Source: a virus
Taxonomy: Duplodnaviria > Heunggongvirae > Uroviricota > Caudoviricetes
Strand: one strand, 5' to 3'
Length of the DNA: 31,872 nucleotides
IMG/VR virus record: IMGVR_UViG_3300045988_180666
Below are positions 3,623-31,188 of this stretch, piece after piece. Below the pieces are notes generated by a model, which did no database searches, was not told where the DNA came from, and saw only the letters and a list, made by a program, of their open reading frames with translations. Positions within the stretch are counted from its first letter, which is position 1. The number at the start of each line of letters is the position of its first letter. The translations under genes and the position numbers were made by a program.

Positions 3623-6600
3623 TTAATATGCGTGGTTCAGCTTGCGCGCTGTGTATTTGGTCGTGTAGTCACTCACCTTGTTGCCCATGGTTGAGTTATA
3701 GACCAGCAGGAACGTCGCACTGTCGCCCTGTCCCATCTCTATGTAATCTTTGTTGCCGCAGTTCTCATCGAGAATCAAAGGTAACTCCTCTTTGTTCCAT
3801 GCGTAGGAATCGCTTTTGTCTTTGATCTTGTTGCGCCCATAAATGAAGAAGTTTGTCGTGCCTGGCTCAGCGACCACCGTAAATGTCACGGCGAAGTTGG
3901 TAGATGAGCCACAGCCTAATGCGCTGCGCACCTCAGACAGTGTTGGCAGCGTTATGCCGCTTGACGAGACGTAGCTGTAGATGAGCCAGACGTTATTCTC
4001 AGAAATCTTGGCATAGCCATTATAGATGGTGTTTTTTGTGCTAAGCGCATATCTGCTATACTTATATCCACCTATCCATCCATTGAGTACGCCATTGCCA
4101 GCACCTGTGAAAGCAAAATTATAGGCACCGTTTTTAGCCGAGAGTATGGCTGCGATATTGTAACCAAGCCCCCACCAGTCGCTGCTGTCCTCATTTTCGA
4201 ATCGAGCCACCGCACGCTGTCCTGATGACGCTGGTAGTACGTTGCCACCGATGCCCGCAAAGCATTTATGGGTATCGTTGCGAAATATGATGTATGCATC
4301 ATTGGTAAATGGGTCGTTTGTCAGACCCGTGCCCTGGATAGTGAATCCAGCGATCTTGCCCGCCAATGCCTCCATGGAGCCATCTTTGTTGATTTTGAAA
4401 TTGCTGTTGGCCGTGACCACACCGTTAAGGTTGATTTGGTCTGCCGTGATGGTGGCAGAGGAGATGCCGTTGGCAATCATTGTCTTGATGGTAGCCTCGG
4501 ATAGAATCTTGCCATCGACACCCTCGATTTTTGTAGTCAGCGCATTGTAGTCTGCCGTCACAAGCAAGCCACCTTTGTTTTTGAGCGTGCCATCGGCATT
4601 GAATCGCTCGCTCATCAGGGCGTTGTAGTCAGCGGTGGTGATAAGATAGCTCGTATCTTTGAGCTTGCCATTGGCATCGAAACGAGCAACTGCCGAAGAC
4701 CACGAATCGGCGTTTTGACTGACTAACGATATAGTCGGACCATAATCGTTGCGTATGTCTGAGCCTACGCTGTCGGCGTGTCTCCTGGCTTCGGCAACGG
4801 AACTGTTGAGGGCATTGTAGTTGTCAGACATAGTCCCTTGCAAAGTGTTTTTGGCTGCATTCAGCTCGTCTTTTGTCGCAGCCTTGCCCACCGTGGTATT
4901 GATGCCATTGACCGTTATCTTTAACTCAGCGAGTGCCGCCTTGGTGCCGTTGGCAGTATTGGTGACGCTCTCGACACGTGCAGTGATGCTGTCGATGTCG
5001 GTGTAGATGCCAGAAATTTTCTCGTTTGTGCTATCCTGCCAGGTGTTGATGAGGTCGATGCGACCTGCCTCTATCTCTATTCTTGACGAGAGTGTTGTGT
5101 TGAGTTCGCCGTATCTCTTATCGACATATAGGCGTATTGCCTCTTTCTCAGCGTCCAGCTCGATGCCGAGCTGAGTTGTGGTACCATTGACCTTGTCGAT
5201 GTTTTGTCCCAGCAGCTTGATGTTTTTGGCCGTCTGAAGTATTTGTGTCGAGACGGTCTTGCTCAGGTTGTCGAGCGGCTCGTCGGTGATGGTGAGCAGC
5301 GCGACGTAGATGTCTCCTGTATATCGGAGCACGAAGTCGCCGGTGCCATTCCACTTGCCATTTAGCTCTACCGTCTGCCACTCTGCCGAGTATGGCACGC
5401 TGACGCTCTGGGCTGACAGGTCGTTGGTCTTGCCTTCGACAGCCTTGCAACCCTCGAAGCCAAAGGTGAGGGTGCCAGCAGTCTTGGCGTAGATGCGAGC
5501 ACTTATATATAAGGTGTCTTGCACCTCGGTGTAGTCATCGCCAGTGGTGTTCATGCCATCCTCGCCTTTTTCTGCCGATGGCTGGGTATATTCCTTGTGG
5601 GTACCGGGTTTGCGGATGAGATCATTGGCTTGTTTGATGCCGCTGTCCTGTATGTGCAGCATGTTGCGACCCTCGTTGTTGTCGATGCTCACTCGGTGGT
5701 TGCCACTCACGGTGGCGGCACCATTGACCATGACAGGTAAGCCATTGGCATCGACCCAGAACTGGGACTCGTCTGTATCGTCGATGGTCCAGCCATCAAT
5801 GAGCTGCTCATCGTTATAGCCTATCGCCGTCAGAAACTGACCGTTATGGAGGTAGTTGTTCTCCTCTGTCGCCTCGTAGGAGGTCTGTGCGAAGCGGGTG
5901 GCGAACTGGTTCTGCAGCATCTGTATTTTGGTGTCGATGCTCTCACCTGTGCGGCGGAGCACGAAGTCGCCCGTGGCGTAGAGGTTCTGCAGGAACTCAC
6001 CGAAGCCTGATAGTGCACCGAAGAGTGGATGGGTGATGCCCCGTAAGTTGCCGAGGCGACCTTTGAGCGCATTGTCTGGGTCTGTCTTGAGACCATAGAT
6101 GATGTCCATGTAGGGCGTATCGCTGCCCACAGTCATCATCTGTATGATGCCCTTGCGGTCGGGGTCGGTGAGGTTGTCGACCCTAACAAAAGTGTCTCGC
6201 TTGGTGATGAGCTGCTCTGCGGTGGCACCCTCCATCGATGAGGTGAAGTTCTTGAACTTGACCCATGCTAGCATATCCTCGCCACTGCCCTCGCTGCCCA
6301 CCTCTGTCACGATAAGCTCGTATCGCTTGGTGACATAGTGATTGTTTTCGGTGGAGGGCATGCCATTGTACTGCTGCACCATCACGTAGTCATCCTTGCG
6401 GAATGGGTTGTACATCCTGCCCTCGTGGGTGTCGAGATAGACCCTGCCTGTCTCTGGATCGTAGTGGTCAACCTCTAGCATCGCCGTGAAGATGCGGTTG
6501 TCATTCTCGCCCAAGAGTTGGGAGATAATCATCTCGAAGATGCGCATGGTACCACGCACGATGAGATTATCGAGCTCTAGACCATACCTATTCTCTTGCA

Positions 6601-7102
6601 CCCCGGCAGCGTTGGTCGTGGGGTTGTTGGCGAGTCGCCAGCCCTTGCCATCGAGGAAGCCCGAGACGAAGTCGGGAGAGCCTATGGTATCGTCAAAACG
6701 AGCAGCGCCCTTGACGTGCAGCGCACTGACTGTCGCCAAGCCCCACGCCAGGATCTCTTCGATGCAAAGCTTGTAACCCCCATTCTCTTTTGTGGCGAGG
6801 CAGAAGCCTTTTTGACCAGCCTCGGAGTAGTCATCAGTGGCGATGGAGTGGGCGATGATGTCGCCCTCTTTGGAGAAAGAAAAGAGGTTGCCTATCTTGA
6901 TGCCCTTGAGAAAGGTGATGAGCCCATGGGCTGTATCGTCGTTGATGGCGGAGAGTTTATCGTTGTCAGCAGAGGAAGCATAGTCGAGCAGGGACAGGAA
7001 GGCGTTGCCAATGCGGCTTGCCGTATTGGCGTGCTTGACTCTCTCGTCACGGATGCCCTCGAAAGCCTCTCTGATTTTGTTGATGTCTTTATTTTCTGCC
7101 AT
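3623..7102 (-). CDS. Large virion protein, 1159 aa; candidate tail fibre/spike or receptor-binding protein
   Basis: ORF track, longest ORF in window. ATG at 7102 lies 14-23 nt downstream of TGCAAAGATA promoter motif (7116-7125). Globular N and C regions flank a central repetitive segment (residues about 640-800). Function inferred from size and architecture only. Confidence 0.7.
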   Translation of the reverse strand: MAENKDINKIREAFEGIRDERVKHANTASRIGNAFLSLLDYASSADNDKLSAINDDTAHGLITFLKGIKIGNLFSFSKEGDIIAHSIATDDYSEAGQKGFCLATKENGGYKLCIEEILAWGLATVSALHVKGAARFDDTIGSPDFVSGFLDGKGWRLANNPTTNAAGVQENRYGLELDNLIVRGTMRIFEMIISQLLGENDNRIFTAMLEVDHYDPETGRVYLDTHEGRMYNPFRKDDYVMVQQYNGMPSTENNHYVTKRYELIVTEVGSEGSGEDMLAWVKFKNFTSSMEGATAEQLITKRDTFVRVDNLTDPDRKGIIQMMTVGSDTPYMDIIYGLKTDPDNALKGRLGNLRGITHPLFGALSGFGEFLQNLYATGDFVLRRTGESIDTKIQMLQNQFATRFAQTSYEATEENNYLHNGQFLTAIGYNDEQLIDGWTIDDTDESQFWVDANGLPVMVNGAATVSGNHRVSIDNNEGRNMLHIQDSGIKQANDLIRKPGTHKEYTQPSAEKGEDGMNTTGDDYTEVQDTLYISARIYAKTAGTLTFGFEGCKAVEGKTNDLSAQSVSVPYSAEWQTVELNGKWNGTGDFVLRYTGDIYVALLTITDEPLDNLSKTVSTQILQTAKNIKLLGQNIDKVNGTTTQLGIELDAEKEAIRLYVDKRYGELNTTLSSRIEIEAGRIDLINTWQDSTNEKISGIYTDIDSITARVESVTNTANGTKAALAELKITVNGINTTVGKAATKDELNAAKNTLQGTMSDNYNALNSSVAEARRHADSVGSDIRNDYGPTISLVSQNADSWSSAVARFDANGKLKDTSYLITTADYNALMSERFNADGTLKNKGGLLVTADYNALTTKIEGVDGKILSEATIKTMIANGISSATITADQINLNGVVTANSNFKINKDGSMEALAGKIAGFTIQGTGLTNDPFTNDAYIIFRNDTHKCFAGIGGNVLPASSGQRAVARFENEDSSDWWGLGYNIAAILSAKNGAYNFAFTGAGNGVLNGWIGGYKYSRYALSTKNTIYNGYAKISENNVWLIYSYVSSSGITLPTLSEVRSALGCGSSTNFAVTFTVVAEPGTTNFFIYGRNKIKDKSDSYAWNKEELPLILDENCGNKDYIEMGQGDSATFLLVYNSTMGNKVSDYTTKYTARKLNHAY

Positions 7103-14247: not shown

Positions 14248-14684
14248 TTTATATGTCCTTTAATGTTAGACTCGATAGCCGAGTGTTTGAAAAGTTTTTT
14301 ATAATTGTCGAATGAATATTTGAGTTTGCTCACCGTGCGCTTGTTTGTGCTCACTAGGTTGGCTCCATGTCTGCCAGAGATGCCTTCCTTGGTATTGAAC
14401 TTCAGAGAATTTCTTTTGGAGTCAACCCAAAGCCTGATGGCATCGCCTTGTATCTTGTCACCCACATTGCCATGGACGTTGAGATCTTCTCGTATTTTCT
14501 TGTCCTCTTCGTTGAGCTCAAGAGCTTCGGTGATTTCTACGGAACTATTTCGGTCTAGTTCGTATAATGTCATCTTTTTGCCCGTGATAGGTTCCTCTTT
14601 GAGTCCCTTCCACTCAGCCCTTCTGGCAATGACATCAGCTTTTTTGCCCTCTATGATTTCACCTTCTTTGATATATATAGCCAT
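14244..14684 (-). CDS. Hypothetical protein, gene 2 of lower-GC cassette
   Basis: ORF track, 146 aa. Lys-rich. 4 nt overlap with gene 3. Confidence 0.55.
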   Translation of the reverse strand: MAIYIKEGEIIEGKKADVIARRAEWKGLKEEPITGKKMTLYELDRNSSVEITEALELNEEDKKIREDLNVHGNVGDKIQGDAIRLWVDSKRNSLKFNTKEGISGRHGANLVSTNKRTVSKLKYSFDNYKKLFKHSAIESNIKGHIK

Positions 14685-15112
14685 TATTGGATACTTTTTT
14701 GCATTGATTTTTCACTGAAAGAGAATACCTCAGCCATATCATCAGGCGAGGTGATGCTCATGAGCGATGGGCTGACCTCAAGAGCCACCTCAATGTCTTC
14801 AATGGAAGCATCTTTATCTTGTTTGATGATGTACTTATCCTCATGCTCTTCAATCTCTTTATCAAACTCTTCTTCGGTAATATTGCCGTCAAGCATTTCG
14901 CAATATAGTTTGAAGTAGTTGCGCTCACGTGTGCGGTTGTTAACGGCACGAGTCATCAACTCCTTGAGTCTGTCGGCAGTACTGATGTTGAAAAAGTTAG
15001 CCTTATTGGTAACACCAGCGAATGCAACCTTGCCAGTACCTTTGTCTTGTATAGCCACAACAGGGCTGCCATCAGTTTGGTATGTTGTATATATAGTCGT
15101 TGTATTGCTCAT
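14684..15112 (-). CDS. Hypothetical protein, gene 1 of lower-GC cassette
   Basis: ORF track, 142 aa. ATG at 15112 is about 29 nt downstream of TGCAAAGATA motif (15141-15150). Acidic C-terminal half. Confidence 0.55.
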   Translation of the reverse strand: MSNTTTIYTTYQTDGSPVVAIQDKGTGKVAFAGVTNKANFFNISTADRLKELMTRAVNNRTRERNYFKLYCEMLDGNITEEEFDKEIEEHEDKYIIKQDKDASIEDIEVALEVSPSLMSITSPDDMAEVFSFSEKSMQKSIQ

Positions 15113-15266: not shown

Positions 15267-15291
15267 TTTCGCCGCAGGCGAAAATTTTTGG
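15267..15291 (+). terminator. Possible plus-strand terminator hairpin adjacent to the radC terminator
   Basis: Stem TTTCGCC (15267-15273) / GGCGAAA (15277-15283), loop GCA, then ATTTTTGG on plus strand. No plus-strand gene ends here, so function unclear. Confidence 0.3.
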
Positions 15292-15320
15292 AAAATGAGG
15301 GGGAAGGTTTTAGCCTTCCC
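15283..15320 (-). terminator. Rho-independent terminator after radC
   Basis: Stem GGGGAAGG (15299-15306) / CCTTCCCC (15313-15320), loop TTTTAG; minus strand continues TCATTTTCCAAAAATT. Confidence 0.6.
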
Positions 15321-15323
15321 CTT

Positions 15324-15340: not shown

Positions 15341-16024
15341 TTATAGCTTTCCTTTGTCGTGGTAGCTGTAGAAGCCATCCTCAGCCAAGATGATATGGTC
15401 CATCAAGAAAAGTCTCATCACCTCGCACGCCTTGGCTATCTTCTGCGTGAGCATATCGTCCGCCTTGCTCGGCTGCGTGCTGTTCGATGGGTGGTTGTGT
15501 GCCACGGCGATGATGGTTGCATTGTTGAGCACGGCTTCTTTCATTATCAGTCGAACGTCCACCGCTGTCTCGGTGATGCCTCCCTCGCTGAGCTTGGTGC
15601 ACTTTATCAGCCTAAAGTTTTGGTTCATCAGCACTACCCAAAAGCCCTCTGTCTCATTGCAGCCTATCATTGGGCGAAGATAGTTGTAGAGTGCCAGGCT
15701 GCTGCCTAGGTCGGTGTTTCTCGCTACCTTTTCCATTTGGTAGCGTCTGCCTAGCTCGATGGCTGCCTGTAGGGCTATCGCCTTGCAGTCTCCAATTCCT
15801 GGTACCACTTCCAGGTCTTCTATTCTCGCCTTGCCGATGTTGCGAAGCGAGTTGCCCATGATGTTATAAATCTGTCGTGCCTGCTCTTGGCTGTCCTTGG
15901 TACCTGCCCCTCTGTTGATTACCAAAGAAATCAAGTCAACGTTGGTAAGGGTGTCGAAACCTTGGTTATAGGCTCTGTACTGCGGTCTCTCCTCCATACA
16001 AAGATTGTTATAATTTTGTCTCAT
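15341..16024 (-). CDS. radC: RadC-like JAB/MPN-domain protein (UPF0758 family)
   Basis: 227 aa. N-terminal helix-hairpin-helix-like VVPGIGDCKAIALQAAIELG. C-terminal AVAHNHPSNSTQPSKADD matches the JAMM motif HxHx7Sx2D typical of RadC family. Confidence 0.8.
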   Translation of the reverse strand: MRQNYNNLCMEERPQYRAYNQGFDTLTNVDLISLVINRGAGTKDSQEQARQIYNIMGNSLRNIGKARIEDLEVVPGIGDCKAIALQAAIELGRRYQMEKVARNTDLGSSLALYNYLRPMIGCNETEGFWVVLMNQNFRLIKCTKLSEGGITETAVDVRLIMKEAVLNNATIIAVAHNHPSNSTQPSKADDMLTQKIAKACEVMRLFLMDHIILAEDGFYSYHDKGKL

Positions 16025-16039
16025 ATCTTTTGTTATTTG

Positions 16040-16564
16040 TTAGTTATACATTCTCTTTGTTCTCGCTAGGAACATCGCTCCCATCACTTGTGCGCCACAT
16101 TCGGCTAGCTCGTTGGCGAACTCTCGGGCGGTCGCTCCGCTCGTCACCACGTCGTCGAAGATGATGACTTTCTTTCCGCTGAAGTACTCTCTATCGAGTG
16201 CCACTCTGTAGTCGAAGCTCTCACACACTCTGTCTGTGCTGAAGTGCTTGGCTGTGCGCTCTCCATAGATGGAAATGTGCTCGTTTCCGTTCTGTACCTT
16301 TGCGCCTTGGCTCACCTTTTGGGCGAAGCGAGAAAAGCGCTTGGTGTACTTCTTTGAGTTGGCTGCTGGAGCGCAAACCATCACGAAGTCGCTGGCTTTG
16401 TCGCCATAGGTGTTGACGAAAGAGCTGACCACCATATCGGCAGCTGCGTCTGTCGCCCACTGCTTTCCATCCTTGAAGGCAAAGATGAAGTTTCTCACTT
16501 GCTCTGCTTGTGCTGAGCGGTCGAAACGCTTGGAGCTGTACTCGTAATAATTGAAAGTTTTCAT
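16040..16564 (-). CDS. Phosphoribosyltransferase (PRTase) domain protein, ComF-like
   Basis: 174 aa. KKVIIFDDVVTSGATAREFANELAECGA matches the PRPP-binding loop of type I PRTases. No N-terminal zinc-ribbon. 15 nt upstream of radC. Confidence 0.7.
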   Translation of the reverse strand: MKTFNYYEYSSKRFDRSAQAEQVRNFIFAFKDGKQWATDAAADMVVSSFVNTYGDKASDFVMVCAPAANSKKYTKRFSRFAQKVSQGAKVQNGNEHISIYGERTAKHFSTDRVCESFDYRVALDREYFSGKKVIIFDDVVTSGATAREFANELAECGAQVMGAMFLARTKRMYN

Positions 16565-17360
16565 ACGCTTAAAATTTTTATTCTAGCCAGAGGGAGGAAG
16601 GAGCTTTTTTATTTGAACTCGTCTTTGCCTGCCCGTCTGAGAGTTTTTTTTATTCTGTCCGTCGGTCGTTTTTGTCGCTTTTTACGGTGCGATGCAGACG
16701 AGCGGAGAAGAGGTATGAAAGCCAAGGAATTTTGCAAAAAGTTTATGGAAAACCGTCATCTCTGATTGCGGAAGGCTGCCGAAAAGTTTTTGGAAAATAG
16801 ATTTATCGGTACTTGGTGCATGCCGTCCGCCGTACCTTTGCACCCGAAAAAGAGATAATGACCGATGGATAACCGATAAAGGGAAAAGCTCTCGGACAGG
16901 AAAAGCGGGCAAAGAAAAGGCTCTGCCTTACCTTGGTGGTTAAGCCTTAGCGACGTTTGAGCGCCATCACGGTCACCACCGCTTGAAAATTCGCAAATTT
17001 TAACCCTAGCGTATGAAATGAAAGATGGAAAATTTGCGTCATCAAAAACACCATGTTTTTCAGACTTCAGGAGGAAAAACATACCTTGGAGCGATGAAAT
17101 CGCAGCATTTGGCATGCTTCGACCCCGAGGTTGAAGATGCCGAATGTGTCGTTTTGCGACAGGTTTTCCACACCCACGGATTGGAAAACCCCGATTTTAT
17201 CGTGGTTTTAGGGATTCAAAGGGAAAATAATTCCCCTTTGTCGGCGATAGCACCCCCCACCGCCCTACGCCCGAGCGCGCCTTCCGCCCCCTTGGAAAAG
17301 ACGGAATATGTAAAAGACCGTTAACGTTTTTGTAGGAATGTAAAAAGCCAAAAGGCACGA

Positions 17361-17394
17361 AAAAAGGGAACACGCTTCGCAGCGCACTCCCCTT
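17361..17394 (-). terminator. Putative terminator after terL
   Basis: Minus strand GGGAGTGCGC-TGCGAA-GCGTGTTCCC (10 bp stem incl. 3 G-U pairs) followed by TTTTTTCG. Confidence 0.45.
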
Positions 17395-17462
17395 ATCGGC
17401 GGTCAAGCAAGAATGCCAGCCACCTAACTTATATAAGAATCGTACTATCTAAAGAAATCAAA

Positions 17463-19064
17463 CTATAGCATGGAACCCGTGGCGATGTAGCCATCAGCCT
17501 GAGGGTATTTCTCCATGCCAATCATGAGCGTGTCGTAGGCATCGGAGCCATCGGTGCGAGCCTCCAACTTATCCTCCTCGGTCTCAGCCAGCTTCTCGCC
17601 TCGCTTATCCTTCTTGCCGTTGTAGACCCCGGCCAGGCGGATGGAGATGAGCAGGTCTTCGTTGTTCTCGCTGTTGATCATCGAGCGATGCTCAGCCTTG
17701 CCGAGGAACATGCGGTTGAGCAGAAGCATCTTTTCGAGATGTCCCATCGGGTTGCCCAGATAGACCTCGTTGACATACCAGCCATGGTCGGTGAGGTAGT
17801 CGGTGATGAAGGTATGGAAGTCATCGTTCATCAGGGCGTAGTTGTTGCCCACGAAGGTGGAGTCGTAGTAGAAGTTGACCTCTTTGCACCGATGGTACTC
17901 ATAGTACTGCATGAACTTGTCGAGCAGGGCTGGCAGCTTCTCCTCATACTTCACGAAGATGCTCTTGAGGCAGCGTGCCTCGCCCCGCAGGTTGTCTTGT
18001 CCGACGGCTATCCAGTTGATGAGGGCGTTGGCATCGAAGGCGATGCAGAGCGGACGGTCGGGGTCAACGTCGGCATCCATTCTGGAATCTACATGCTTGA
18101 GCTTGTCGATGTCGTAGCCCAAGCCATCGAGGTAGGCGAGGTTGGGCGCCGTGTATAGGTTGGCATCCCTGAGGTTGGAGTAGAAGCCATCGAGCGAGAT
18201 GGAAGGTCGCTTGCACATGATGGAGGTCTGGAAGGTGAGGGCAGGGAGGTCTCGCTTCATCTGCTTGATGAACTCCATGCCGAGCACCTCGATGTTATAG
18301 ACCGATGAGTACTCTTTATAGAAGAGTGCCTTGGAGCGCAGTTGCGCCAGGAGCTGACCAATCTCTCGGAGTCGGCGCTGGGCATAGCCTGAGACATGGC
18401 CCGAGGTCTTGATGCGGTTGCGTATGTCATACTCCTCTACCACGAGCGAGGCGATGGCGTCGATGAGCAGCTGGTCGCAGTCTTTCTTGTAGTTGAGGAA
18501 CCAGGAGCCCTTCTTGGTCACGGGCATATCAGAGGTGATGAGCATGCCATGGTGGTAGTAGTGCTGGCCGAAGAGGTTGACGTTGCCTCGATTGGCAGGG
18601 AAGGTCTCGTCTTTGAGCTGTTCGAAGTTGATGAACTTCGCCTCGTCGATGTCGAGGTAGTCGAGCGAGAGGGAGTTGGAGGTACCCTTGCGGTCTTGCG
18701 AGATGATGGTACCGATGGAGCCGTTATAGAAAGAGATGGTGTTCTCCCAGTTGCTGGGCGGTATGACCGGGTCGGGCCATCCCAGTTTTTTGGGAGGCTT
18801 GACCCCGATGAGATAATGCTTGCCCCGGTGGAAGCCCCATCGCTCCCAGTGCTGAAGCATCGACGGTATGGTGTTGGTGAGGCATCGCTTGGTGTTGGCG
18901 GATACGAAGCCGCCGTTGCTGCCAGGCATGCGCTGCATGTTGCGCAGGTTGAAGGTGGCGTGGAGAATGCTCTTGCCGATGCCTCGACCGCCCACGACCA
19001 CGTTGTCGCGGGCGGAGATGAGGTTGACCTCCATCTGGGCTGGGTTGAGATATTGATCTATCAT
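17463..19064 (-). CDS. terL: Terminase large subunit
   Basis: 533 aa. Walker A-like VVVGGRGIGKS near N-terminus, Walker B-like LDYLDIDEA. Size and position beside a small upstream gene with ATGA overlap fit a phage TerL. Confidence 0.75.
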   Translation of the reverse strand: MIDQYLNPAQMEVNLISARDNVVVGGRGIGKSILHATFNLRNMQRMPGSNGGFVSANTKRCLTNTIPSMLQHWERWGFHRGKHYLIGVKPPKKLGWPDPVIPPSNWENTISFYNGSIGTIISQDRKGTSNSLSLDYLDIDEAKFINFEQLKDETFPANRGNVNLFGQHYYHHGMLITSDMPVTKKGSWFLNYKKDCDQLLIDAIASLVVEEYDIRNRIKTSGHVSGYAQRRLREIGQLLAQLRSKALFYKEYSSVYNIEVLGMEFIKQMKRDLPALTFQTSIMCKRPSISLDGFYSNLRDANLYTAPNLAYLDGLGYDIDKLKHVDSRMDADVDPDRPLCIAFDANALINWIAVGQDNLRGEARCLKSIFVKYEEKLPALLDKFMQYYEYHRCKEVNFYYDSTFVGNNYALMNDDFHTFITDYLTDHGWYVNEVYLGNPMGHLEKMLLLNRMFLGKAEHRSMINSENNEDLLISIRLAGVYNGKKDKRGEKLAETEEDKLEARTDGSDAYDTLMIGMEKYPQADGYIATGSML

Positions 19065-21916: not shown

Positions 21917-23035
21917 TTACTCCTTGCCCTCAGCTCCGGTATCGTCTGCAGAAGAATTCTTCTGCTCTGCATCGCTAGCTGTGTTGCTGCTTGCAGGATC
22001 AGCACCTGAACCCTTTGTGATGAGCGATGTGGTACCATCGTTTGTGATGAACAGGGCTCGTTCTTTATTGATGCTCTCGTACTGGCAACCTAAGAACTTG
22101 GTGGCGATGAAGTCGAGCTTCCAAGGGTGGTACTTTTCTACGCTGATCTTCTCCTCGTCGCTGTTGTTTGCCTCGTTGACACCCACGAGCATATTGTTGC
22201 GAGTGGTGAGCTGGAAGAACGGAGCGTTCTTCTTGTTGATGAGTGGTACCATCTCAACGTTGTCGAAACCCTCGACGGTGTTGTGGTTGTAACCGGTATT
22301 GTATGGCACATTGCCAAACTTATTGAGGTAGTTGCGGTTGTAGAGATTGATGAACGCCTGTGGAACGTAGAGATAAAGCTTCTCTTCGCCAATCAGTTCT
22401 TCGTCAGCCTCCTCGCAAATGGCCTGTGCGAAGTCAACGGCGTTATCGCTGCTGATATTCTTACCACTGCCCAAAATATCTGAAACTTTGATGAGGTTGC
22501 CGAGGTCTCGAGACAGCTTGCCATTAGTCAACTCAGTCTTGGCGATGGTATCGAAACCATTGAAGAGGTCTTTTGAGCCTTTGCCCTCGTCGTTGCGCAC
22601 GGCATCGAAGAGGTGGAGGTTGAGGTTCTTGCCCAGCTTGAGCGCCAAGAGCTGCAGCACCTGAAGGGTGATTGGCACGTTCTTAAGCGCTTCGCCATTC
22701 ATGGCGTTGGCCCCCCAAATGGTGGAATAAACTGAGTTCGGGGAGAACTTGATGTCAACGTTGCCGAGGAACACCTGCAAAGTGCGAGGTGTAATCTTTA
22801 CGCCACCATCGCCCACGCGGTTCTCGTCGTATGGACCAAACTCTGCGTTGCCGAGCAACTCGCCCACGGTCTCTGAAACTCTGATGCCCGGGCGCAGGGT
22901 CATGTACTTGAGTGACTGAGCCAAGCCTTTGGTAGGCATCGTAATCAACTTCGAACGGTAAGTTTTCGCAGTGTTCTGCAGCTGTACATCGACATCTACA
23001 GGCACAATGAATTTATTATCTGCCATATTATGCAA
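21917..23035 (-). CDS. Putative major capsid protein
   Basis: ORF track, 372 aa. Immediately downstream of the ClpP-like protease gene, which is the usual capsid position. Size fits HK97-fold capsids. No motif confirmation. Confidence 0.45.
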   Translation of the reverse strand: MHNMADNKFIVPVDVDVQLQNTAKTYRSKLITMPTKGLAQSLKYMTLRPGIRVSETVGELLGNAEFGPYDENRVGDGGVKITPRTLQVFLGNVDIKFSPNSVYSTIWGANAMNGEALKNVPITLQVLQLLALKLGKNLNLHLFDAVRNDEGKGSKDLFNGFDTIAKTELTNGKLSRDLGNLIKVSDILGSGKNISSDNAVDFAQAICEEADEELIGEEKLYLYVPQAFINLYNRNYLNKFGNVPYNTGYNHNTVEGFDNVEMVPLINKKNAPFFQLTTRNNMLVGVNEANNSDEEKISVEKYHPWKLDFIATKFLGCQYESINKERALFITNDGTTSLITKGSGADPASSNTASDAEQKNSSADDTGAEGKE

Positions 23036-24053
23036 ACTGATTTAAAACATCCAACACTTGATCTGAGCAGAAATCCTCGACCTTGGTGTCATCGACAGCA
23101 GTGTGCGTGTCGCCACCAGGCTCTCCCTCCAGATCCTTCACTTTATCCTTCAGGTCATCTCTCTCCTTTTCGAGATTCTTGACCTTAGTCTCTAACTCCT
23201 TCTTCTCGTCCTTGACCTTCTGAAGCTCTGTGTCTTTGTCGGTCACGGCCTTGGAGTCGGCAGCGATCTTATCCTCCAGTTTCTGCATCTGCTCCTGTGA
23301 GATTGTGCAGTTCTTTGCGGAATCTTCTGCCTCAATGCCCTCGATATTGAGGACATTGTTGATGTGAGTCCATTTTTTGATCATATTAATAATTTTATTT
23401 TGTGATTTATCTTTGCCGAATAATCGGTCGATGATGCTTGGCTTTTTATCATACCAGGAGTTAACAACCTCTGGGAGAACAGGAAGGTTGTTGTACTTGA
23501 TGAAGTCTTGCGTCTGCTCGGTGATGTCGGCAGGCTTGCCATCCATGGCTTCATCGACGAGACCCAGTTCGATGCACTCATCGACGGTGTGCCACATCGC
23601 TTCGGACATCACCTTGACGATGTCCTCGTGCTTCTTGCCCGAGCGATCGCAGTAAACGTTGGCGATGATGTTGTCGATTTTCTGCTGGTTCTCTTGCTGT
23701 TTTTGAAGTTGCTCGATGAGCGAGCCTATCTGCTCCTCGTTGAGCGCAGACCACACAAACTGCTCGGTAGAGCACTTGTGTACCAGGAGCAAGCTATATT
23801 TGCTCATGCGAATCTTGCTGGCACCCATCGCACAGATGGTGGCAGCAGAGGCAGAGAAGCCCGCCTGGAAGTCAACGGTCACGTCGCCATGGGACTTGAA
23901 CATCTGACAGATGGCGAGACCTGCGGAGACCTCGCCACCCAAGGAGTCGATGGCAACATCGACGTGCTTATCTTTGTTGGCCTTAAGAACATCGCGAACC
24001 ATGAGCTTGGTCCACGAGCCAATATATCCTGTGATAGAAATTTGGTACTTCAT
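23028..24053 (-). CDS. ClpP-like prohead serine protease with C-terminal coiled-coil (scaffold-like) extension
   Basis: 341 aa. DSLGGEVSAGLAI, GFSASAATICAMGA and LLLVHK resemble ClpP/S14 catalytic regions. C-terminal 100 aa is Lys/Glu/Asp-rich heptad-like (KVKDEKKELETKVKNLEKERDDLKDKVKDLE). Confidence 0.75.
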   Translation of the reverse strand: MKYQISITGYIGSWTKLMVRDVLKANKDKHVDVAIDSLGGEVSAGLAICQMFKSHGDVTVDFQAGFSASAATICAMGASKIRMSKYSLLLVHKCSTEQFVWSALNEEQIGSLIEQLQKQQENQQKIDNIIANVYCDRSGKKHEDIVKVMSEAMWHTVDECIELGLVDEAMDGKPADITEQTQDFIKYNNLPVLPEVVNSWYDKKPSIIDRLFGKDKSQNKIINMIKKWTHINNVLNIEGIEAEDSAKNCTISQEQMQKLEDKIAADSKAVTDKDTELQKVKDEKKELETKVKNLEKERDDLKDKVKDLEGEPGGDTHTAVDDTKVEDFCSDQVLDVLNQFA

Positions 24054-25197: not shown

Positions 25198-25215
25198 ATA
25201 GCTATGCAATTTTCG

Positions 25216-25225
25216 TGCAAAGATA
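25216..25225 (-). promoter_or_regulatory. Promoter -7 element for the 194-aa gene
   Basis: TGCAAAGATA about 20 nt from ATG at about 25197. Confidence 0.55.
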
Positions 25226-25339
25226 CAAAGAAAATTTGAAATAACTAACGATAATCGGTAAAAACTAACTTTTATCAGTAAATTTGGTGTGATATAATTT
25301 CGTCCGAAAAGTTTGTATTTTTGTATCGTACAAACAAGG

Positions 25340-25593
25340 CTCTGTAACTAGCTGATAATCAATACTATTTTTGTGATACAATTTTCTGATACAGAAATTG
25401 TAACTCTTTAGCTTTTGTAACTTGGGGTTTTGTCGAGGTCGAAGACCTGTAGGAGAAGGGGCTTGTTACAAACTTGAAAAACTTTGTAACAGAGTTGTAA
25501 CGCAACTTTGTAAACATCGGCAAGGCGGCTTAACTCCATCTTTTATAATTATTTACCTCTTTTGCCAACATTATGTTACAGAGTTACAAAGGA
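25340..25593. repeat. Iteron-like array of at least 9 TTGTAAC / GTTACAA elements in both orientations
   Basis: Copies at about 25343, 25399, 25416, 25464 (rev), 25485, 25496, 25507 (variant), 25576 (rev), 25584 (rev). Includes near-repeats TGTAACAGAGTTGTAAC and TGTTACAGAGTTACAAAG. Downstream of primase gene. Confidence 0.6.
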
Positions 25594-25733
25594 TTTGTAT
25601 AAAATAAAAGAAAGGGGTGTGGGGAAAACGATGGCACGGGGCGTGAAGGAGGATAGGGAAGGCCCATCGAGACACCCAGGACACCCCCATTGGCCAATGG
25701 AGGGGTAGCGAGACGAAACATCGCCCATGGCAA

Positions 25734-25770
25734 CGAAAAAAGGGAGCGACGGCCAATGCGCATCGCTCCC
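25734..25770 (-). terminator. Rho-independent terminator after primase-helicase gene
   Basis: 8 bp GC stem GGGAGCGA (25742-25749) / TCGCTCCC (25763-25770); plus-strand A-run 25736-25741 gives TTTTTT on minus strand. Confidence 0.65.
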
Positions 25771-25951
25771 TCGTAACATGGGAAAAGAATTATAAATCAG
25801 CAAAAATCTGCCTATGAAATCAGCCCTCGTCTGCTTGCAAAAATAGTGAAAAATTGCTTGAAAATTTAGCCGAAAATATTTGCATAATTCAGATATTTTT
25901 TGTACCTTTGCACTATAACTTGGGGCTATCTATTCTATTATATATGGATGG

Positions 25952-30527: not shown

Positions 30528-30542
30528 AAAGTGCTACTTTTG
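30511..30542 (+). promoter_or_regulatory. Bacteroidetes-type promoter of TetR gene (-33 TTTG, -7 TACTTTTG) overlapping an inverted repeat
   Basis: TTTG at 30511-30514 and TACTTTTG at 30535-30542, 20 nt apart. Inverted repeat TTGCACA (30540-30546) / TGTGCAA (30559-30565) overlaps the predicted start site. Confidence 0.5.
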
Positions 30543-30591
30543 CACATTGATAATTTATTGTGCAACCAAATCTCGATGGAGGTACTTCGTT

Positions 30592-31188
30592 ATGTCAATA
30601 TCAAAAACTAGACAGAAATTAGTGGATGTCGCTCGACAACTCTTTGCAAAGAACGGAATCGCCAATACAACGATGAATGACATCGCTGTGGCTTCTGGTA
30701 AGGGACGTCGCACGCTTTATACCTATTTTAGTCGTAAGGAGGACGTCTATTACGCAGTGATAGAGTCGGAATTGGAGCGCCTTTCTGACAAACTTGACGA
30801 AGTGGCCGCCAGTAAGATTCGACCTCAAGACAAAATCATCGAATTGATTTATACCCACTTGAGCATGATCAAGGAGACTGTTGTCAGAAATGGAAATCTG
30901 AGAGCTGAGTTCTTCCGCAATATTTGGATGGTGGAAAAGGCTCGCAAGAATTTCGATGAAGACGAGATAGAACTTCTCAGGAAGGTTTATTCCGAGGGCA
31001 AGGCGGACGGCGAGTTTGACATCGATAATGTAGATTTGGTGGCTGACATCACACACTATTGCATCAAAGGTCTCGAAGTTCCGTTTATCTATGGGCGATT
31101 GGGACATGGCTTGAACGTGGAGTCGAGCAAACCGCTGGTTGCCAAGGTTGTCTATGGTGCTTTAGGAAAGTCGGGAATGAAGTTGTAA
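30592..31188 (+). CDS. TetR/AcrR-family transcriptional regulator (host-type)
   Basis: Track ORF starts at 30547; ATG at 30592 (MSISKTRQKLVDVARQLFAKNGIANTTMNDIAVASGKGRRTLYTYF) gives the canonical TetR N-terminal HTH. Bacteroidetes-type promoter upstream. Confidence 0.8.
   Translation: MSISKTRQKLVDVARQLFAKNGIANTTMNDIAVASGKGRRTLYTYFSRKEDVYYAVIESELERLSDKLDEVAASKIRPQDKIIELIYTHLSMIKETVVRNGNLRAEFFRNIWMVEKARKNFDEDEIELLRKVYSEGKADGEFDIDNVDLVADITHYCIKGLEVPFIYGRLGHGLNVESSKPLVAKVVYGALGKSGMKL

What the first reader, a model, noticed from the sequence alone, without database searches (positions are those of the whole stretch)
16565..17462. About 900 bp ORF-free, repeat-containing region between terL and the PRTase gene: candidate structured ncRNA or packaging/recombination site
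Gene packing elsewhere is near-contiguous, but here about 900 bp have only short, implausible ORFs. The region contains a near-direct repeat CAAAAAGTTTATGGAAAA (16735-16752) / CGAAAAGTTTTTGGAAAAT (16780-16798), with a third copy CGAAAATTTTTGGAAAAT at 15279-15296 beside the radC terminator. It also has nested inverted repeats (TTTATCGGT 16802-16810 with ACCGATAAA 16872-16880, enclosing GGTGCA 16815-16820 / TGCACC 16839-16844), several other hairpins, and recurrent TTTTCC(A) on the minus strand. It lies directly downstream of terL, where a pac/cos site or small RNA would be plausible.
Basis: seen in the sequence. Interest (0 to 1): 0.6.

Follow-up and report, generated by a model that had tools for sequence, protein, structure and literature searches.

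The report
Candidate single-stranded-DNA hairpin promoter in phage
The "empty" 900 bp after this gut phage's terminase-like gene is largely a 350-460-base DNA hairpin holding a host-type promoter that faces away from the genes it precedes, which makes sense only if it fires when the DNA is single-stranded, a device known from E. coli conjugative plasmids but not from Bacteroidota or phages.

Summary
In detail: w16565-17462 is non-coding, conserved and repeat-rich, and matches no Rfam family or tRNA. It has two modules.

Module B (w~16559-17018) is one long imperfect hairpin that folds well only on the + strand, the template strand of the downstream ComF-like PRTase and RadC genes (RNA z -6.1, DNA z -5.1; minus strand about -1.6). 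Its gene-distal arm carries a perfect Bacteroidota -7 box (TACCTTTGCAC, w16833-16840) pointing away from PRTase. AnnT of the box sits in a conserved bubble. No canonical box lies on the gene strand.

Among related phages, 38 of 40 distinct PRTase-RadC gaps have only this antisense box. 20 of 21 gaps preceding other genes have an ordinary sense box.

The hairpin core is homologous to elements arrayed one per intergenic gap, always antisense, in Bacteroidales conjugative-transposon regions encoding ArdC, PcfJ and PcfK.

Best explanation (confidence 0.55): a Frpo-like single-stranded-DNA promoter. This is inferred from sequence only. When the phage DNA would be single-stranded is unknown.

Module A (w~17040-17400) holds the terL-like gene's terminator and conserved non-coding motifs of unknown function.

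The parts
17463..19064 (-). terL-like ORF (533 aa), the upstream neighbour
   Evidence: Weak PHROG phrog_2 terminase large subunit hit, E 1.1e-4. No Pfam or PDB sequence hit. 72 related loci were retrieved with it.
17360..17400 (-). Intrinsic terminator of the terL-like gene (GGGGAGUGCGCUGCGAAGCGUGUUCCC followed by a U-run on the minus strand)
   Evidence: 14-bp stem followed by a T-run in the minus-strand fold. The stem shows compensatory variants across relatives (alignment). The simple scan did not list it.
17040..17359 (.). Module A: conserved non-coding block present in nearly all close relatives, whatever gene follows
   Evidence: 76-92% identity to the window in 25-nt bins over most of the block, lower at both ends. 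No codon periodicity and truncated ORFs. Only a weak consensus structure on either strand.
17248..17313 (+). Module A core: 23-nt motif TAGCACCCCCCACCGCCCTACGC (17248-17270), then about 30 variable nt, then ACGGAATATGTAA (17301-17313)
   Evidence: The C-rich core (17 nt) is conserved in close relatives and in the distant clade L057-L072. There it lies downstream of RadC, on the strand antisense to the genes in both clades. L163 matches 22 of the 23 nt.
16992..17038 (.). Invariant inverted repeat CGCAAATTTT / AAAATTTGCG, forming near-consensus -7-like boxes (AAAATTTG) on both strands
   Evidence: I15, 10/10 complementary. Invariant in alignment A1. It matches only the relaxed pattern nAnnTTTG.
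16559..17018 (+). Module B: long imperfect hairpin on the + strand. The part conserved in all PRTase-carrying groups is about 16585-16935. The outermost helix 16559-16569/17008-17018 is specific to the window's subgroup.
   Evidence: RNA parameters: -181.2 kcal/mol, z -6.06. DNA parameters: -89.8, z -5.14. Minus strand, DNA: -68.0, z -1.58. 26 of 184 pairs are G-T. The fold is kept in three sequence groups about 82% identical. On alignment A1, 79.8% of cells pair against 40-47% in slid controls, with 9 compensatory pairs.
16585..16727 (+). Left (gene-proximal) arm, the proposed template arm. GGTGCGA (16686-16692) pairs with TTGCACC of the box region. The predicted start is near w16678-16686, giving a 5'UTR of about 115-120 nt.
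   Evidence: Duplex drawing. Pairing partners and predicted UTR length.
16728..16810 (+).
   Evidence: The motif recurs in diverged conjugative-transposon copies.
16811..16935 (+). Right (gene-distal) arm, the proposed non-template arm that carries the promoter elements
16812..16815 (+). -33-like CTTG inside GTACTTGG, invariant in alignment A2, 16-19 nt upstream of the -7 box
   Evidence: Alignment A2. It pairs with the invariant CAAG of the left arm (helix 4). Some diverged copies read ACTTGA.
16833..16840 (+). Canonical Bacteroidota -7 box TACCTTTG(CAC) facing away from PRTase, with AnnT in an internal loop
   Evidence: It reads like the window's own promoter boxes upstream of gene blocks. 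It is the only TAnnTTTG in the gap, and none lies on the gene strand. Only the nn positions vary among relatives.
16908..16927 (-). Terminator-like hairpin on the gene strand inside the right arm
   Evidence: It would stop minus-strand transcripts coming from upstream.
16040..16564 (-). ComF-like phosphoribosyltransferase-fold gene (174 aa), first gene downstream of the hairpin
   Evidence: PF00156, E 4.5e-7. The best NCBIfam match is the ComF family TIGR00201, E 1.6e-7, below its cutoff. The family is narrow.
15341..16024 (-). RadC-like JAB-domain gene (227 aa), second gene of the cassette, followed by a terminator at 15300-15321
   Evidence: PF04002, E 1.2e-35. Terminator.

Best explanation
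The gap holds two things.

Module A (w~17040-17400) is the terminator of the terL-like gene plus a conserved non-coding block of unknown role.

Module B (w~16559-17018) is a hairpin promoter that should work only on single-stranded DNA.

Proposed mechanism (inferred, not shown). When the + strand is single-stranded, its two arms pair. The + strand is the template strand of the PRTase and RadC genes. The stem then rebuilds a double-stranded host promoter. The gene-distal arm supplies the non-template-sense elements: CTTG at -33, and TACCTTTGCAC at -7 with AnnT held open in a bubble. The gene-proximal arm serves as template. RNA polymerase would start near w16680 and run down that arm into the ComF-like PRTase and RadC genes.

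In ordinary duplex DNA the same box points the wrong way. The cassette has no canonical promoter of its own and is flanked upstream by terminators, so it should be silent.

The element belongs to a family repeated upstream of small genes in Bacteroidales conjugative transposons. There, single-stranded transfer gives the obvious trigger. In the phage the trigger is unknown. Candidates are end resection of injected DNA, replication intermediates, or cruciform extrusion.
For: Shown by tools:

1. Strand-specific hairpin. The + strand gives z -6.1 (RNA) and -5.1 (DNA). The minus strand gives about -1.6. 26 of the pairs are G-T. The fold is kept in three phage groups about 82% identical, with compensatory changes.

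2. The box. The only canonical TAnnTTTG in the gap is on the + strand, in the distal arm. It reads like the window's own promoter boxes, TAyCTTTGCA. Only its nn positions vary.

3. Natural experiment. Of 40 distinct gaps preceding PRTase-RadC, 38 have only an antisense box and none has a sense box. Of 21 gaps preceding other genes, 20 have a sense box.

4. Independent recurrence. A distant phage clade (terL-like protein 52% identical) has a hairpin that nhmmer does not detect as homologous. It has the same layout before its own PRTase-RadC, with z -7.8. A phage with a 51%-identical PRTase has a homologous element.

5. Bubble. The pattern 'AnnT unpaired, flanks paired to the proximal arm' occurs in 13 of 16 elements and 22 of 34 distinct family sequences. 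It occurs in 6 of 272 left-arm shuffles. The bubble position peaks at offset 0.

6. Conjugative-transposon homologues. Core homologues form same-strand arrays, one per gap, upstream of minus-strand small genes. The regions encode ArdC, PcfJ, PcfK, a UvrD-type helicase and a lysozyme/M23 protein. In 8 of 8 gaps examined the box is antisense; one of these also has a weak gene-strand match without the usual following C.

7. Covariation across phage and transposon types. 89.4% of cells pair, against 38-51% in slid controls. Six pairs show compensatory change, and some G-T pairs are invariant.

8. No conserved promoter could make a + strand RNA spanning both arms.

From the literature: Frpo/ssi promoters are long intergenic stem-loops that rebuild -35/-10 boxes upstream of leading-region operons and are not active in double-stranded form. 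They come as several non-homologous classes, one per operon (PMC9849209; PMC12672017; PMC11541004).
Against: 1. Everything is inferred from sequence. No transcript, start site or single-stranded state was observed.

2. A tailed dsDNA phage has no known obligatory single-stranded stage. Under co-directional replication the exposed strand would be the other one (my own reasoning).

3. The box is complete within one arm, so in duplex DNA it could also act as an ordinary antisense promoter. This differs from how Frpo is described.

4. The -33 element is imperfect (CTTG, spacing 16-19 nt). It is not evident in the L057-type hairpin.

5. Some conjugative-transposon copies are thermodynamically unremarkable: L081:12085-12500 has z -0.37, and strand asymmetry is small or absent in several.

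6. A near-consensus gene-strand box (TTAAAATTTGCG, w17004-16993) is invariant and could be a weak duplex promoter with a 420-nt leader.

7. The transferred-strand polarity of the conjugative transposons could not be established.

8. The counts include related sequences. There are only about 5-6 independent phage lineages and about 8-10 distinct transposon copies.

9. My positive control on F Frpo2 reproduced the long hairpin, but my simple scan did not locate its sigma-70 boxes.
Confidence: 0.55

Rival explanations
1. An ordinary duplex antisense promoter. The + strand box drives a non-coding or cis-antisense RNA running rightwards through the right arm and module A. This RNA would regulate or insulate the cassette. 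PRTase-RadC itself would be transcribed from the near-consensus gene-strand box at w17004-16993 through a 420-nt structured leader.
For: The box is complete in one arm and would be functional in duplex DNA. An invariant near-consensus box exists on the gene strand. Module A is conserved and lies downstream on the + strand. The terminator of the terL-like gene could stop such an RNA.
Against: It does not explain why the proximal arm is complementary to the promoter region. It does not explain why AnnT sits in a conserved bubble, why the folding is strand-specific, or why arrays of such boxes face away from every gene in the transposon regions. Module A exists without module B and then has no canonical + strand box. 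In the L057 clade there is no module A downstream of the box. A terminator-like hairpin on the gene strand at 16927-16908 would cut the proposed long leader.
Confidence: 0.15
2. The same hairpin acts mainly as a priming signal (ssi or sso type). RNA polymerase would make a short primer on single-stranded DNA for complementary-strand synthesis, rather than an mRNA.
For: Frpo was described as serving both transcription and primer synthesis (PMC12672017). The structure, its strand specificity and its orientation dependence fit single-strand origins.
Against: The tight link with one particular gene pair in phages and the one-per-gene arrays in transposons fit gene expression better than replication. 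One priming site per element would be enough.
Confidence: 0.1
3. A MITE-like or repetitive palindromic element, or an intergenic terminator/insulator hairpin, that carries a promoter-like box by chance.
For: It is repeated, intergenic and hairpin-forming, and it is shared between unrelated mobile elements.
Against: Copies within one array are strongly diverged (nhmmer scores 35-170). Every copy examined has the same orientation relative to its flanking genes. Genome hits were only 1-3 per genome, and all those examined lay in conjugative-transposon contexts. The box and its bubble are the best-conserved features.
Confidence: 0.05
4. One reading: a structured ncRNA, or a packaging (pac/cos) or recombination site, downstream of terL. 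It remains possible mainly for module A.
For: Module A is conserved and non-coding. It holds a 23-nt motif whose core is kept across distant phages, enriched TGGAAAA motifs, and local hairpins with compensatory variants.
Against: No Rfam match. Only a weak consensus structure on either strand. Related sequences are collinear through the region. For module B, no promoter could produce a transcript with both arms.
Confidence: 0.1
5. An invertible (phase-variable) promoter caught in the OFF orientation, as is common in Bacteroidales.
For: A promoter facing away from its gene and flanked by inverted repeats is what an OFF inverton looks like.
Against: Alignments are uninterrupted through the hairpin in 33 phage loci. 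Every conjugative-transposon copy examined has the same orientation relative to its flanking genes, and no high-scoring match in the inverted orientation was found. The promoter lies inside the repeat arm, not between short perfect repeats. No recombinase is linked to the cassette.
Confidence: 0.03

Closest known systems
Frpo/ssi single-stranded-DNA promoters of IncF and IncI conjugative plasmids (classes 1-3)
   Same: Long intergenic stem-loop formed by the template strand directly upstream of an operon on a mobile element. The stem rebuilds the host promoter. Duplex DNA is expected to be silent for the gene. There are several non-homologous classes, one hairpin per operon, and the family members here sit in conjugative elements beside an ArdC-type anti-restriction gene (PMC9849209; PMC12672017; PMC11541004; here).
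   Different: No sequence similarity to F Frpo2. The promoter elements are the Bacteroidota type (TTTG / TAnnTTTG), not TTGACA/TATAAT. The -7 box lies complete in one arm with a fixed 4-nt bubble. The hosts are Bacteroidales. This copy sits in a tailed-phage genome with no transferred strand. Activity is untested.
Minus-strand origin of filamentous phages (f1/M13) and single-strand origins (sso) of rolling-circle plasmids
   Same: Strand- and orientation-specific imperfect hairpins on ssDNA that host RNA polymerase recognises as a promoter mimic (my own knowledge, not tested here).
   Different: Those make a short primer for complementary-strand synthesis and occur once per replicon in elements with an obligatory ssDNA stage. 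Here the element is tied to a specific gene pair and, in the transposons, to every gene of an array.
Hairpin early promoters of coliphage N4
   Same: A phage precedent for promoters that are DNA hairpins, extruded from supercoiled duplex DNA with the help of SSB (my own knowledge).
   Different: N4 hairpins are tiny (5-7 bp stems) and are read by a virion-carried phage RNA polymerase. Here the hairpin has hundreds of bases and carries host-type sigma elements.
Bacteroidales invertible promoters (invertons)
   Same: A host-type promoter found facing away from its gene and bracketed by inverted repeats.
   Different: Every copy found here has a single orientation. The arms are long and imperfect, and the promoter lies within an arm.

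Membership tests
Frpo/ssi-type single-stranded-DNA promoter | Non-coding segment directly upstream of the controlled gene(s) on a mobile element | tested here: met
   The hairpin ends at or near the PRTase start codon. The transposon copies sit one per gap upstream of each small gene.
Frpo/ssi-type single-stranded-DNA promoter | The strand that is template for the downstream genes folds into a long, stable stem-loop | tested here: met
   Window + strand: DNA z -5.14 against -1.58 for the other strand. L057: z -7.8. L141: z -3.7. One transposon copy is not exceptional, z -0.37.
Frpo/ssi-type single-stranded-DNA promoter | The stem rebuilds the host sigma factor's promoter boxes, oriented so that transcription runs down the proximal arm into the gene | tested here: inconclusive
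   The -7 box is canonical, lies in the distal arm and has the right polarity. The -33 element is only CTTG at 16-19 nt and is not evident in the L057-type hairpin.
Frpo/ssi-type single-stranded-DNA promoter | [quoted passage not shown] | tested here: not met
   The window is a tailed-phage genome: head protease and terL-like gene. For the homologous transposon copies, oriT and strand polarity could not be determined.
Frpo/ssi-type single-stranded-DNA promoter | Sequence homology to known Frpo/ssi elements | tested here: not met
   blastn of F Frpo2 against the gap gives only chance matches, E >= 2.5. Known classes also lack homology to one another (PMC12672017).
Frpo/ssi-type single-stranded-DNA promoter | Active on ssDNA, inactive on dsDNA, with a mapped start site | not testable with these tools
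   Needs in vitro transcription or 5' RACE.
Rfam structured RNA families | Match to a curated covariance model | tested here: not met
   No hit at gathering score in the window. None at E<=10 in 16400-17600. None over the elements in the transposon and phage homologue loci.
Bacteroidales invertible promoter | Both orientations occur among genomes or reads | tested here: not met
   Alignments are collinear in 33 phage loci. All transposon copies examined have one orientation relative to their genes.
Protein-coding gene or pseudogene | Codon-position bias of substitutions, ORF kept in relatives, family match | tested here: not met
   Variable sites 28/38/35 by codon position. The ORF is truncated in several variants. 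No Pfam or PHROG hits.
Phage pac/cos site | Virion DNA termini map to the site | not testable with these tools
   Only assemblies are available, and these are collinear through the region.

The most novel reading that the evidence does not exclude
Bacteroidota mobile elements use a previously undescribed class of single-strand-specific hairpin promoters. These are built on the phylum's own -33/-7 elements, with a pre-opened AnnT bubble. They occur in arrays in conjugative transposons. Tailed dsDNA phages of Segatella/Prevotella have adopted them as an ssDNA-sensing switch. The switch would turn on a ComF-like PRTase plus RadC module only when the phage genome becomes single-stranded, for example after exonuclease attack on an injected end or in replication or recombination intermediates.
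Probability: 0.35. Interest if true: 0.88.

Novelty: new variant of a known kind. Interest (0 to 1): 0.78.

Why it matters
The ssDNA promoters described in the papers read here are those of enterobacterial IncF/IncI plasmids and their sequence relatives. One large survey also proposed candidates elsewhere, but it screened for sigma-70 consensus boxes (PMC11541004). That screen cannot see Bacteroidota promoters.

If this reading is right, three things follow.

1. Early, strand-dependent gene expression during DNA entry extends to the dominant gut phylum.
2. It yields a simple sequence signature: an intergenic hairpin with an antisense TAnnTTTG in the distal arm and an AnnT bubble. That signature could be used to find leading-region-like anti-defence genes in Bacteroidales conjugative transposons.
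3. It shows for the first time such a device in a tailed phage. That raises a testable question of when and why a dsDNA phage exposes single-stranded DNA, and what a ComF-like/RadC pair does there.

Four full-text searches of the held library found no paper describing such elements in Bacteroidota or in phages. The library is incomplete.

Tried and rejected
- Rfam at gathering and permissive thresholds, and a tRNA scan: nothing.
- Coding hypothesis for the 76/99-aa + strand ORF: rejected. There is no codon periodicity and the ORF is truncated in relatives.
- RNAalifold on module A, both strands: weak (-15 and -25 kcal/mol for about 290 columns), so no structure is claimed.
- Sigma-70 promoter scan of the gap: none.
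- Positive control on F plasmid Frpo2. The long hairpin was reproduced, and the T strand was the more stable (-121.4 against -112). My simple -35/-10 scan found no boxes, so the box geometry of Frpo was not verified here.
- A naive test for 6-mer helices flanking the box was uninformative: 66% of left-arm shuffles also passed. It was replaced by the fold-based test.
- PRTase homologue search: the family is narrow and almost confined to these phages, so no transposon origin of the cassette could be shown.
- NCBIfam and Pfam on the small genes of the transposon arrays: no names except a weak DUF1281_C match.
- Literature on CTnDOT transfer polarity: nothing usable.
- The + strand box inside the PRTase ORF, as a promoter for a hairpin RNA: not conserved.
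- MFE comparison of four other intergenic regions of the window: no strand asymmetry and lower per-base stability. Promoter boxes there were not examined for hairpin context.
- No covariance model was built.
Full report
**1. The observation**

All substantial ORFs around the finding lie on the minus strand. They are a terL-like ORF (17463-19064; weak PHROG terminase hit, E 1e-4), a PRTase-fold ORF (16040-16564; PF00156) and a RadC ORF (15341-16024; PF04002, E 1e-35). The best NCBIfam match of the PRTase is the ComF family, below its cutoff.

The 898 bp between terL and the PRTase contain ORFs of up to 119 aa. None hits Pfam or PHROGs. No Rfam family matches, even at E<=10, and there is no tRNA.

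Its small inverted repeats exist. TGGAAAA is enriched, with 16 copies against 4.3 expected, six of them in w16746-17299.

**2. Conservation and modularity**

The terL-like protein retrieved 72 related IMG/VR loci. The gap is conserved in all close relatives and splits into two modules.

- Module A (w~17040-17400) is present whatever gene follows.
- Module B (w~16560-17020) travels with the PRTase-RadC cassette. In other relatives it is replaced, together with that cassette, by other genes, for example a SocA/Panacea antitoxin.

The most persistent ORF in module A (plus strand, 17094-17324) is not coding. Variable sites fall 28/38/35 on codon positions 1/2/3, and the ORF is truncated in several variants. 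So this is neither a gene nor a decayed one.

**3. Module B is one large strand-specific hairpin**

| Segment and strand | Parameters | MFE (kcal/mol) | z |
|---|---|---|---|
| w16565-16990, + | RNA | -160.7 | -7.57 |
| w16565-16990, - | RNA | -111.9 | -1.52 |
| w16520-17050, + | RNA | -181.2 | -6.06 |
| w16520-17050, + | DNA | -89.8 | -5.14 |
| w16520-17050, - | DNA | -68.0 | -1.58 |

The asymmetry comes from 26 G-T pairs among 184. The strand that folds is the template strand of the PRTase and RadC genes.

Three sequence groups of PRTase-carrying phages, about 82% identical, keep the same fold on the same strand. On their alignment 79.8% of cells pair, against 40-47% when partners are slid. 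Nine pairs change on both sides, against 1-4 in the slid controls. Some helices are mis-registered by MAFFT, so these numbers are conservative.

The outermost helix (16559-16569 with 17008-17018) is specific to the window's subgroup. The part shared by all groups is about 16585-16935.

**4. A host promoter facing the wrong way**

Promoter boxes of the Bacteroidota type upstream of gene blocks in this window read TAyCTTTGCA on the gene strand, for example at w15150, w25225, w24084, w12489 and w7126.

In the whole gap the only TAnnTTTG is TACCTTTGCAC at w16833-16840. It lies on the + strand and points away from PRTase. None lies on the gene strand. Across relatives only the two 'n' positions vary: TACCTTTG, TAAATTTG, TACATTTG.

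The box sits in the gene-distal arm of the hairpin. Its TTGCAC pairs with GTGCGA of the proximal arm. The bases just upstream pair as well. AnnT lies in an internal loop.

The geometry follows from strand polarity alone. In the folded + strand the distal arm is the non-template strand, read loop-to-base in the order -33, -7, +1. The proximal arm is the template. Transcription would therefore leave the hairpin toward PRTase, with a 5'UTR of about 115-120 nt. This is the layout described for Frpo/ssi single-stranded-DNA promoters (PMC9849209; PMC12672017; PMC11541004).

**5. A natural experiment among relatives**

| Gap downstream of terL | Antisense box only | Sense box | No box |
|---|---|---|---|
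| Precedes PRTase-RadC (40 distinct gaps) | 38 | 0 | 2 |
| Precedes another gene (21 distinct gaps) | 0 | 20 (3 with overlong gap definitions also have an antisense box) | 1 |

The sequences are related, so they represent only about five or six independent lineages. Two of those lineages are informative.

- The distant clade L057-L072 (terL-like protein 52% identical) has a hairpin with no detectable similarity to the window's. Its architecture before its own PRTase-RadC is the same: DNA z -7.8, and TACCTTTGCAC with its TA-side bases unpaired.
- L163, a phage whose PRTase is 51% identical, has a homologous hairpin (nhmmer E 2e-17) and no sense box.

A + strand box inside the PRTase ORF (w16295) could in principle have produced an RNA containing both arms. 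It is not conserved.

**6. Homologues in conjugative transposons**

The hairpin core (GTACTTGG ... GTCCRCCGTAnnTTTGC) occurs outside the phage clade. The hosts are Bacteroides, Phocaeicola, Alistipes and Prevotellamassilia genomes, plus 'viral' contigs. These regions encode ArdC-like proteins, PcfJ, PcfK, a UvrD-type helicase, a lysozyme/M23 protein and a tyrosine integrase.

A profile of the core finds arrays there. Up to four copies about 1 kb apart lie on the same strand, one in each gap upstream of each minus-strand small gene. In 8 of 8 such gaps there is exactly one TAnnTTTGC on the strand antisense to the genes. There is no canonical box on the gene strand, only one weak match without the following C.

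Across three phage groups and four transposon types, the long-range helices are 89.4% paired, against 38-51% in slid controls. Six pairs show compensatory change, and some G-T pairs are invariant.

The architecture 'flanks paired to the proximal arm, AnnT open' is found as follows:

- 13 of 16 elements;
- 22 of 34 distinct family sequences;
- 6 of 272 left-arm shuffles;
- the bubble position peaks sharply at the box.

Not every copy is thermodynamically exceptional. L141 has z -3.7 and L081:12085-12500 has z -0.37.

**7. Interpretation**

The most economical account is that module B belongs to a Bacteroidota family of hairpin promoters that work on single-stranded DNA. It accounts for each of these:

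- the strand-specific hairpin;
- the inverted box and its bubble;
- the absence of a sense promoter;
- the exclusive link with one cassette in phages;
- the one-per-gene arrays in conjugative elements.

This parallels pESBL and F, where every induced leading-region operon has its own hairpin and the hairpins fall into non-homologous classes (PMC12672017).

That the cassette encodes a ComF-like protein and RadC is suggestive. From my own knowledge, both families are linked to handling incoming single-stranded DNA in competence. This is not evidence.

The weak point is the phage context. I cannot say when the + strand would be single-stranded. If a genome end lay on the terL side, 5'-to-3' resection would expose exactly this strand. 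Cruciform extrusion and replication intermediates are other options. All of this is speculation.

The box could also act as a plain antisense promoter in duplex DNA. An invariant near-consensus gene-strand box at w17004-16993 could be a weak duplex promoter, although a terminator-like hairpin follows it at 16927-16908. Rival readings as an inverton, a MITE-like repeat or a priming site are weighed in their own sections. The uniform orientation of all copies argues against an inverton.

**8. Module A**

Module A contains three things:

- the terminator of the terL-like gene (w17360-17400);
- local hairpins, some with visible compensatory variants;
- a core made of TAGCACCCCCCACCGCCCTACGC (w17248-17270) followed about 30 nt later by ACGGAATATGTAA.

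The core of this motif is conserved even in the distant clade. There it lies downstream of RadC instead of upstream of the hairpin, flanked by two GGCAATTGCC palindromes. L163 matches 22 of the 23 nt. No convincing consensus structure emerges on either strand.

Its function is unknown. A protein-binding or regulatory site, a small RNA gene on the + strand, or a packaging signal all remain possible.

**9. Comparison with known systems, and novelty**

The element works like Frpo/ssi on paper but fails two membership criteria. It has no sequence homology to F Frpo2, and the window copy is not in a conjugative leading region. Activity is untested.

It differs in three further ways: a Bacteroidota-type box rather than sigma-70 boxes, a fixed bubble at AnnT, and a phage host element.

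Searches of the held literature found ssDNA promoters described in IncF/IncI plasmids and their relatives. One survey also proposed candidates in other conjugative elements, but it looked for TTGACA/TATAAT. I rate this a new variant of a known kind. Confidence in the mechanism is 0.55 and interest is 0.78.

Noticed in passing
window 17248-17313; L057 8600-8700; L163 about 4300-4400: A 23-nt C-rich motif (TAGCACCCCCCACCGCCCTACGC) followed about 30 nt later by GCGGWATATGTAA. Its 17-nt core is conserved across close and distant phage clades, although the surrounding sequence is unalignable. Its position relative to PRTase-RadC differs: upstream in one clade, downstream in the other. In the distant clade it is flanked by two GGCAATTGCC palindromes. 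On the gene strand it reads as G-tracts (GGGCGTAGGGCGGTGGGGGG), a possible G-quadruplex.
   Followed up: partly
window 16746-17299, also 15214 and 15289: TGGAAAA (TTTTCCA on the gene strand) occurs 16 times in the window against 4.3 expected, with six copies in the gap. In the L011 group the motif is kept while the hairpin it forms in the window is lost. This hints at a protein-binding site rather than a structure.
   Followed up: partly
L003 about 6700-6790 and L016, insertion inside module A: Two relatives carry an insertion of about 75 nt with tandem GACTTGGTACGGA-like repeats and repeated TTTGCAAAG motifs, between the ATATGTAA motif and the terL terminator.
   Followed up: no
between module A and the 142-aa gene (window 14684-15112) in L004, L006, L011, L039, L045, L052: This position is a hotspot for accessory cassettes: PRTase-RadC, a SocA/Panacea antitoxin-domain gene plus a 123-aa gene, a 338-aa gene, or nothing. 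L052 keeps only the distal part of the right arm (w16877-17048), which suggests a deletion derivative.
   Followed up: partly
L115 246-342 and the ORF at L125 1480-3285: A group II intron (Rfam RF00029, 58 bits) lies in the Bacteroides ndongoniae ArdC-like region. A 601-aa ORF whose sequence looks like a reverse transcriptase sits beside the ArdC-like gene in the homologous Bacteroides ilei locus. This suggests the intron interrupts that gene.
   Followed up: no
window 25210-25951 and 30535-31188: A 740-bp intergenic region carries several TAnnTTTG boxes on both strands, including TACCTTTGCAC at 25903 on the + strand. A TetR-family gene on the + strand (30547-31188) has its own canonical promoter. 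This may be the regulatory or lysogeny control region. It shows no strand-asymmetric hairpin.
   Followed up: partly
L154 (Segatella copri MAG contig JAJXAL010000006.1): A contig binned with Segatella copri carries a phage 86% identical and collinear with w16087-20809. Its hairpin core scores almost the same as the window's and looks like a mosaic of two phage groups. This suggests S. copri as host and recombination inside the hairpin.
   Followed up: partly
L060 and L062, gaps downstream of terL: Two PRTase-carrying relatives of the distant clade have no canonical box on either strand in the gap. They may use a variant box.
   Followed up: no
window gene order 24053-17463: On the minus strand the head protease gene (23028-24053) precedes the terL-like gene. 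The terL-like gene is followed by the accessory cassette and then by genes of unknown function. The terL assignment rests only on a weak PHROG match.
   Followed up: no
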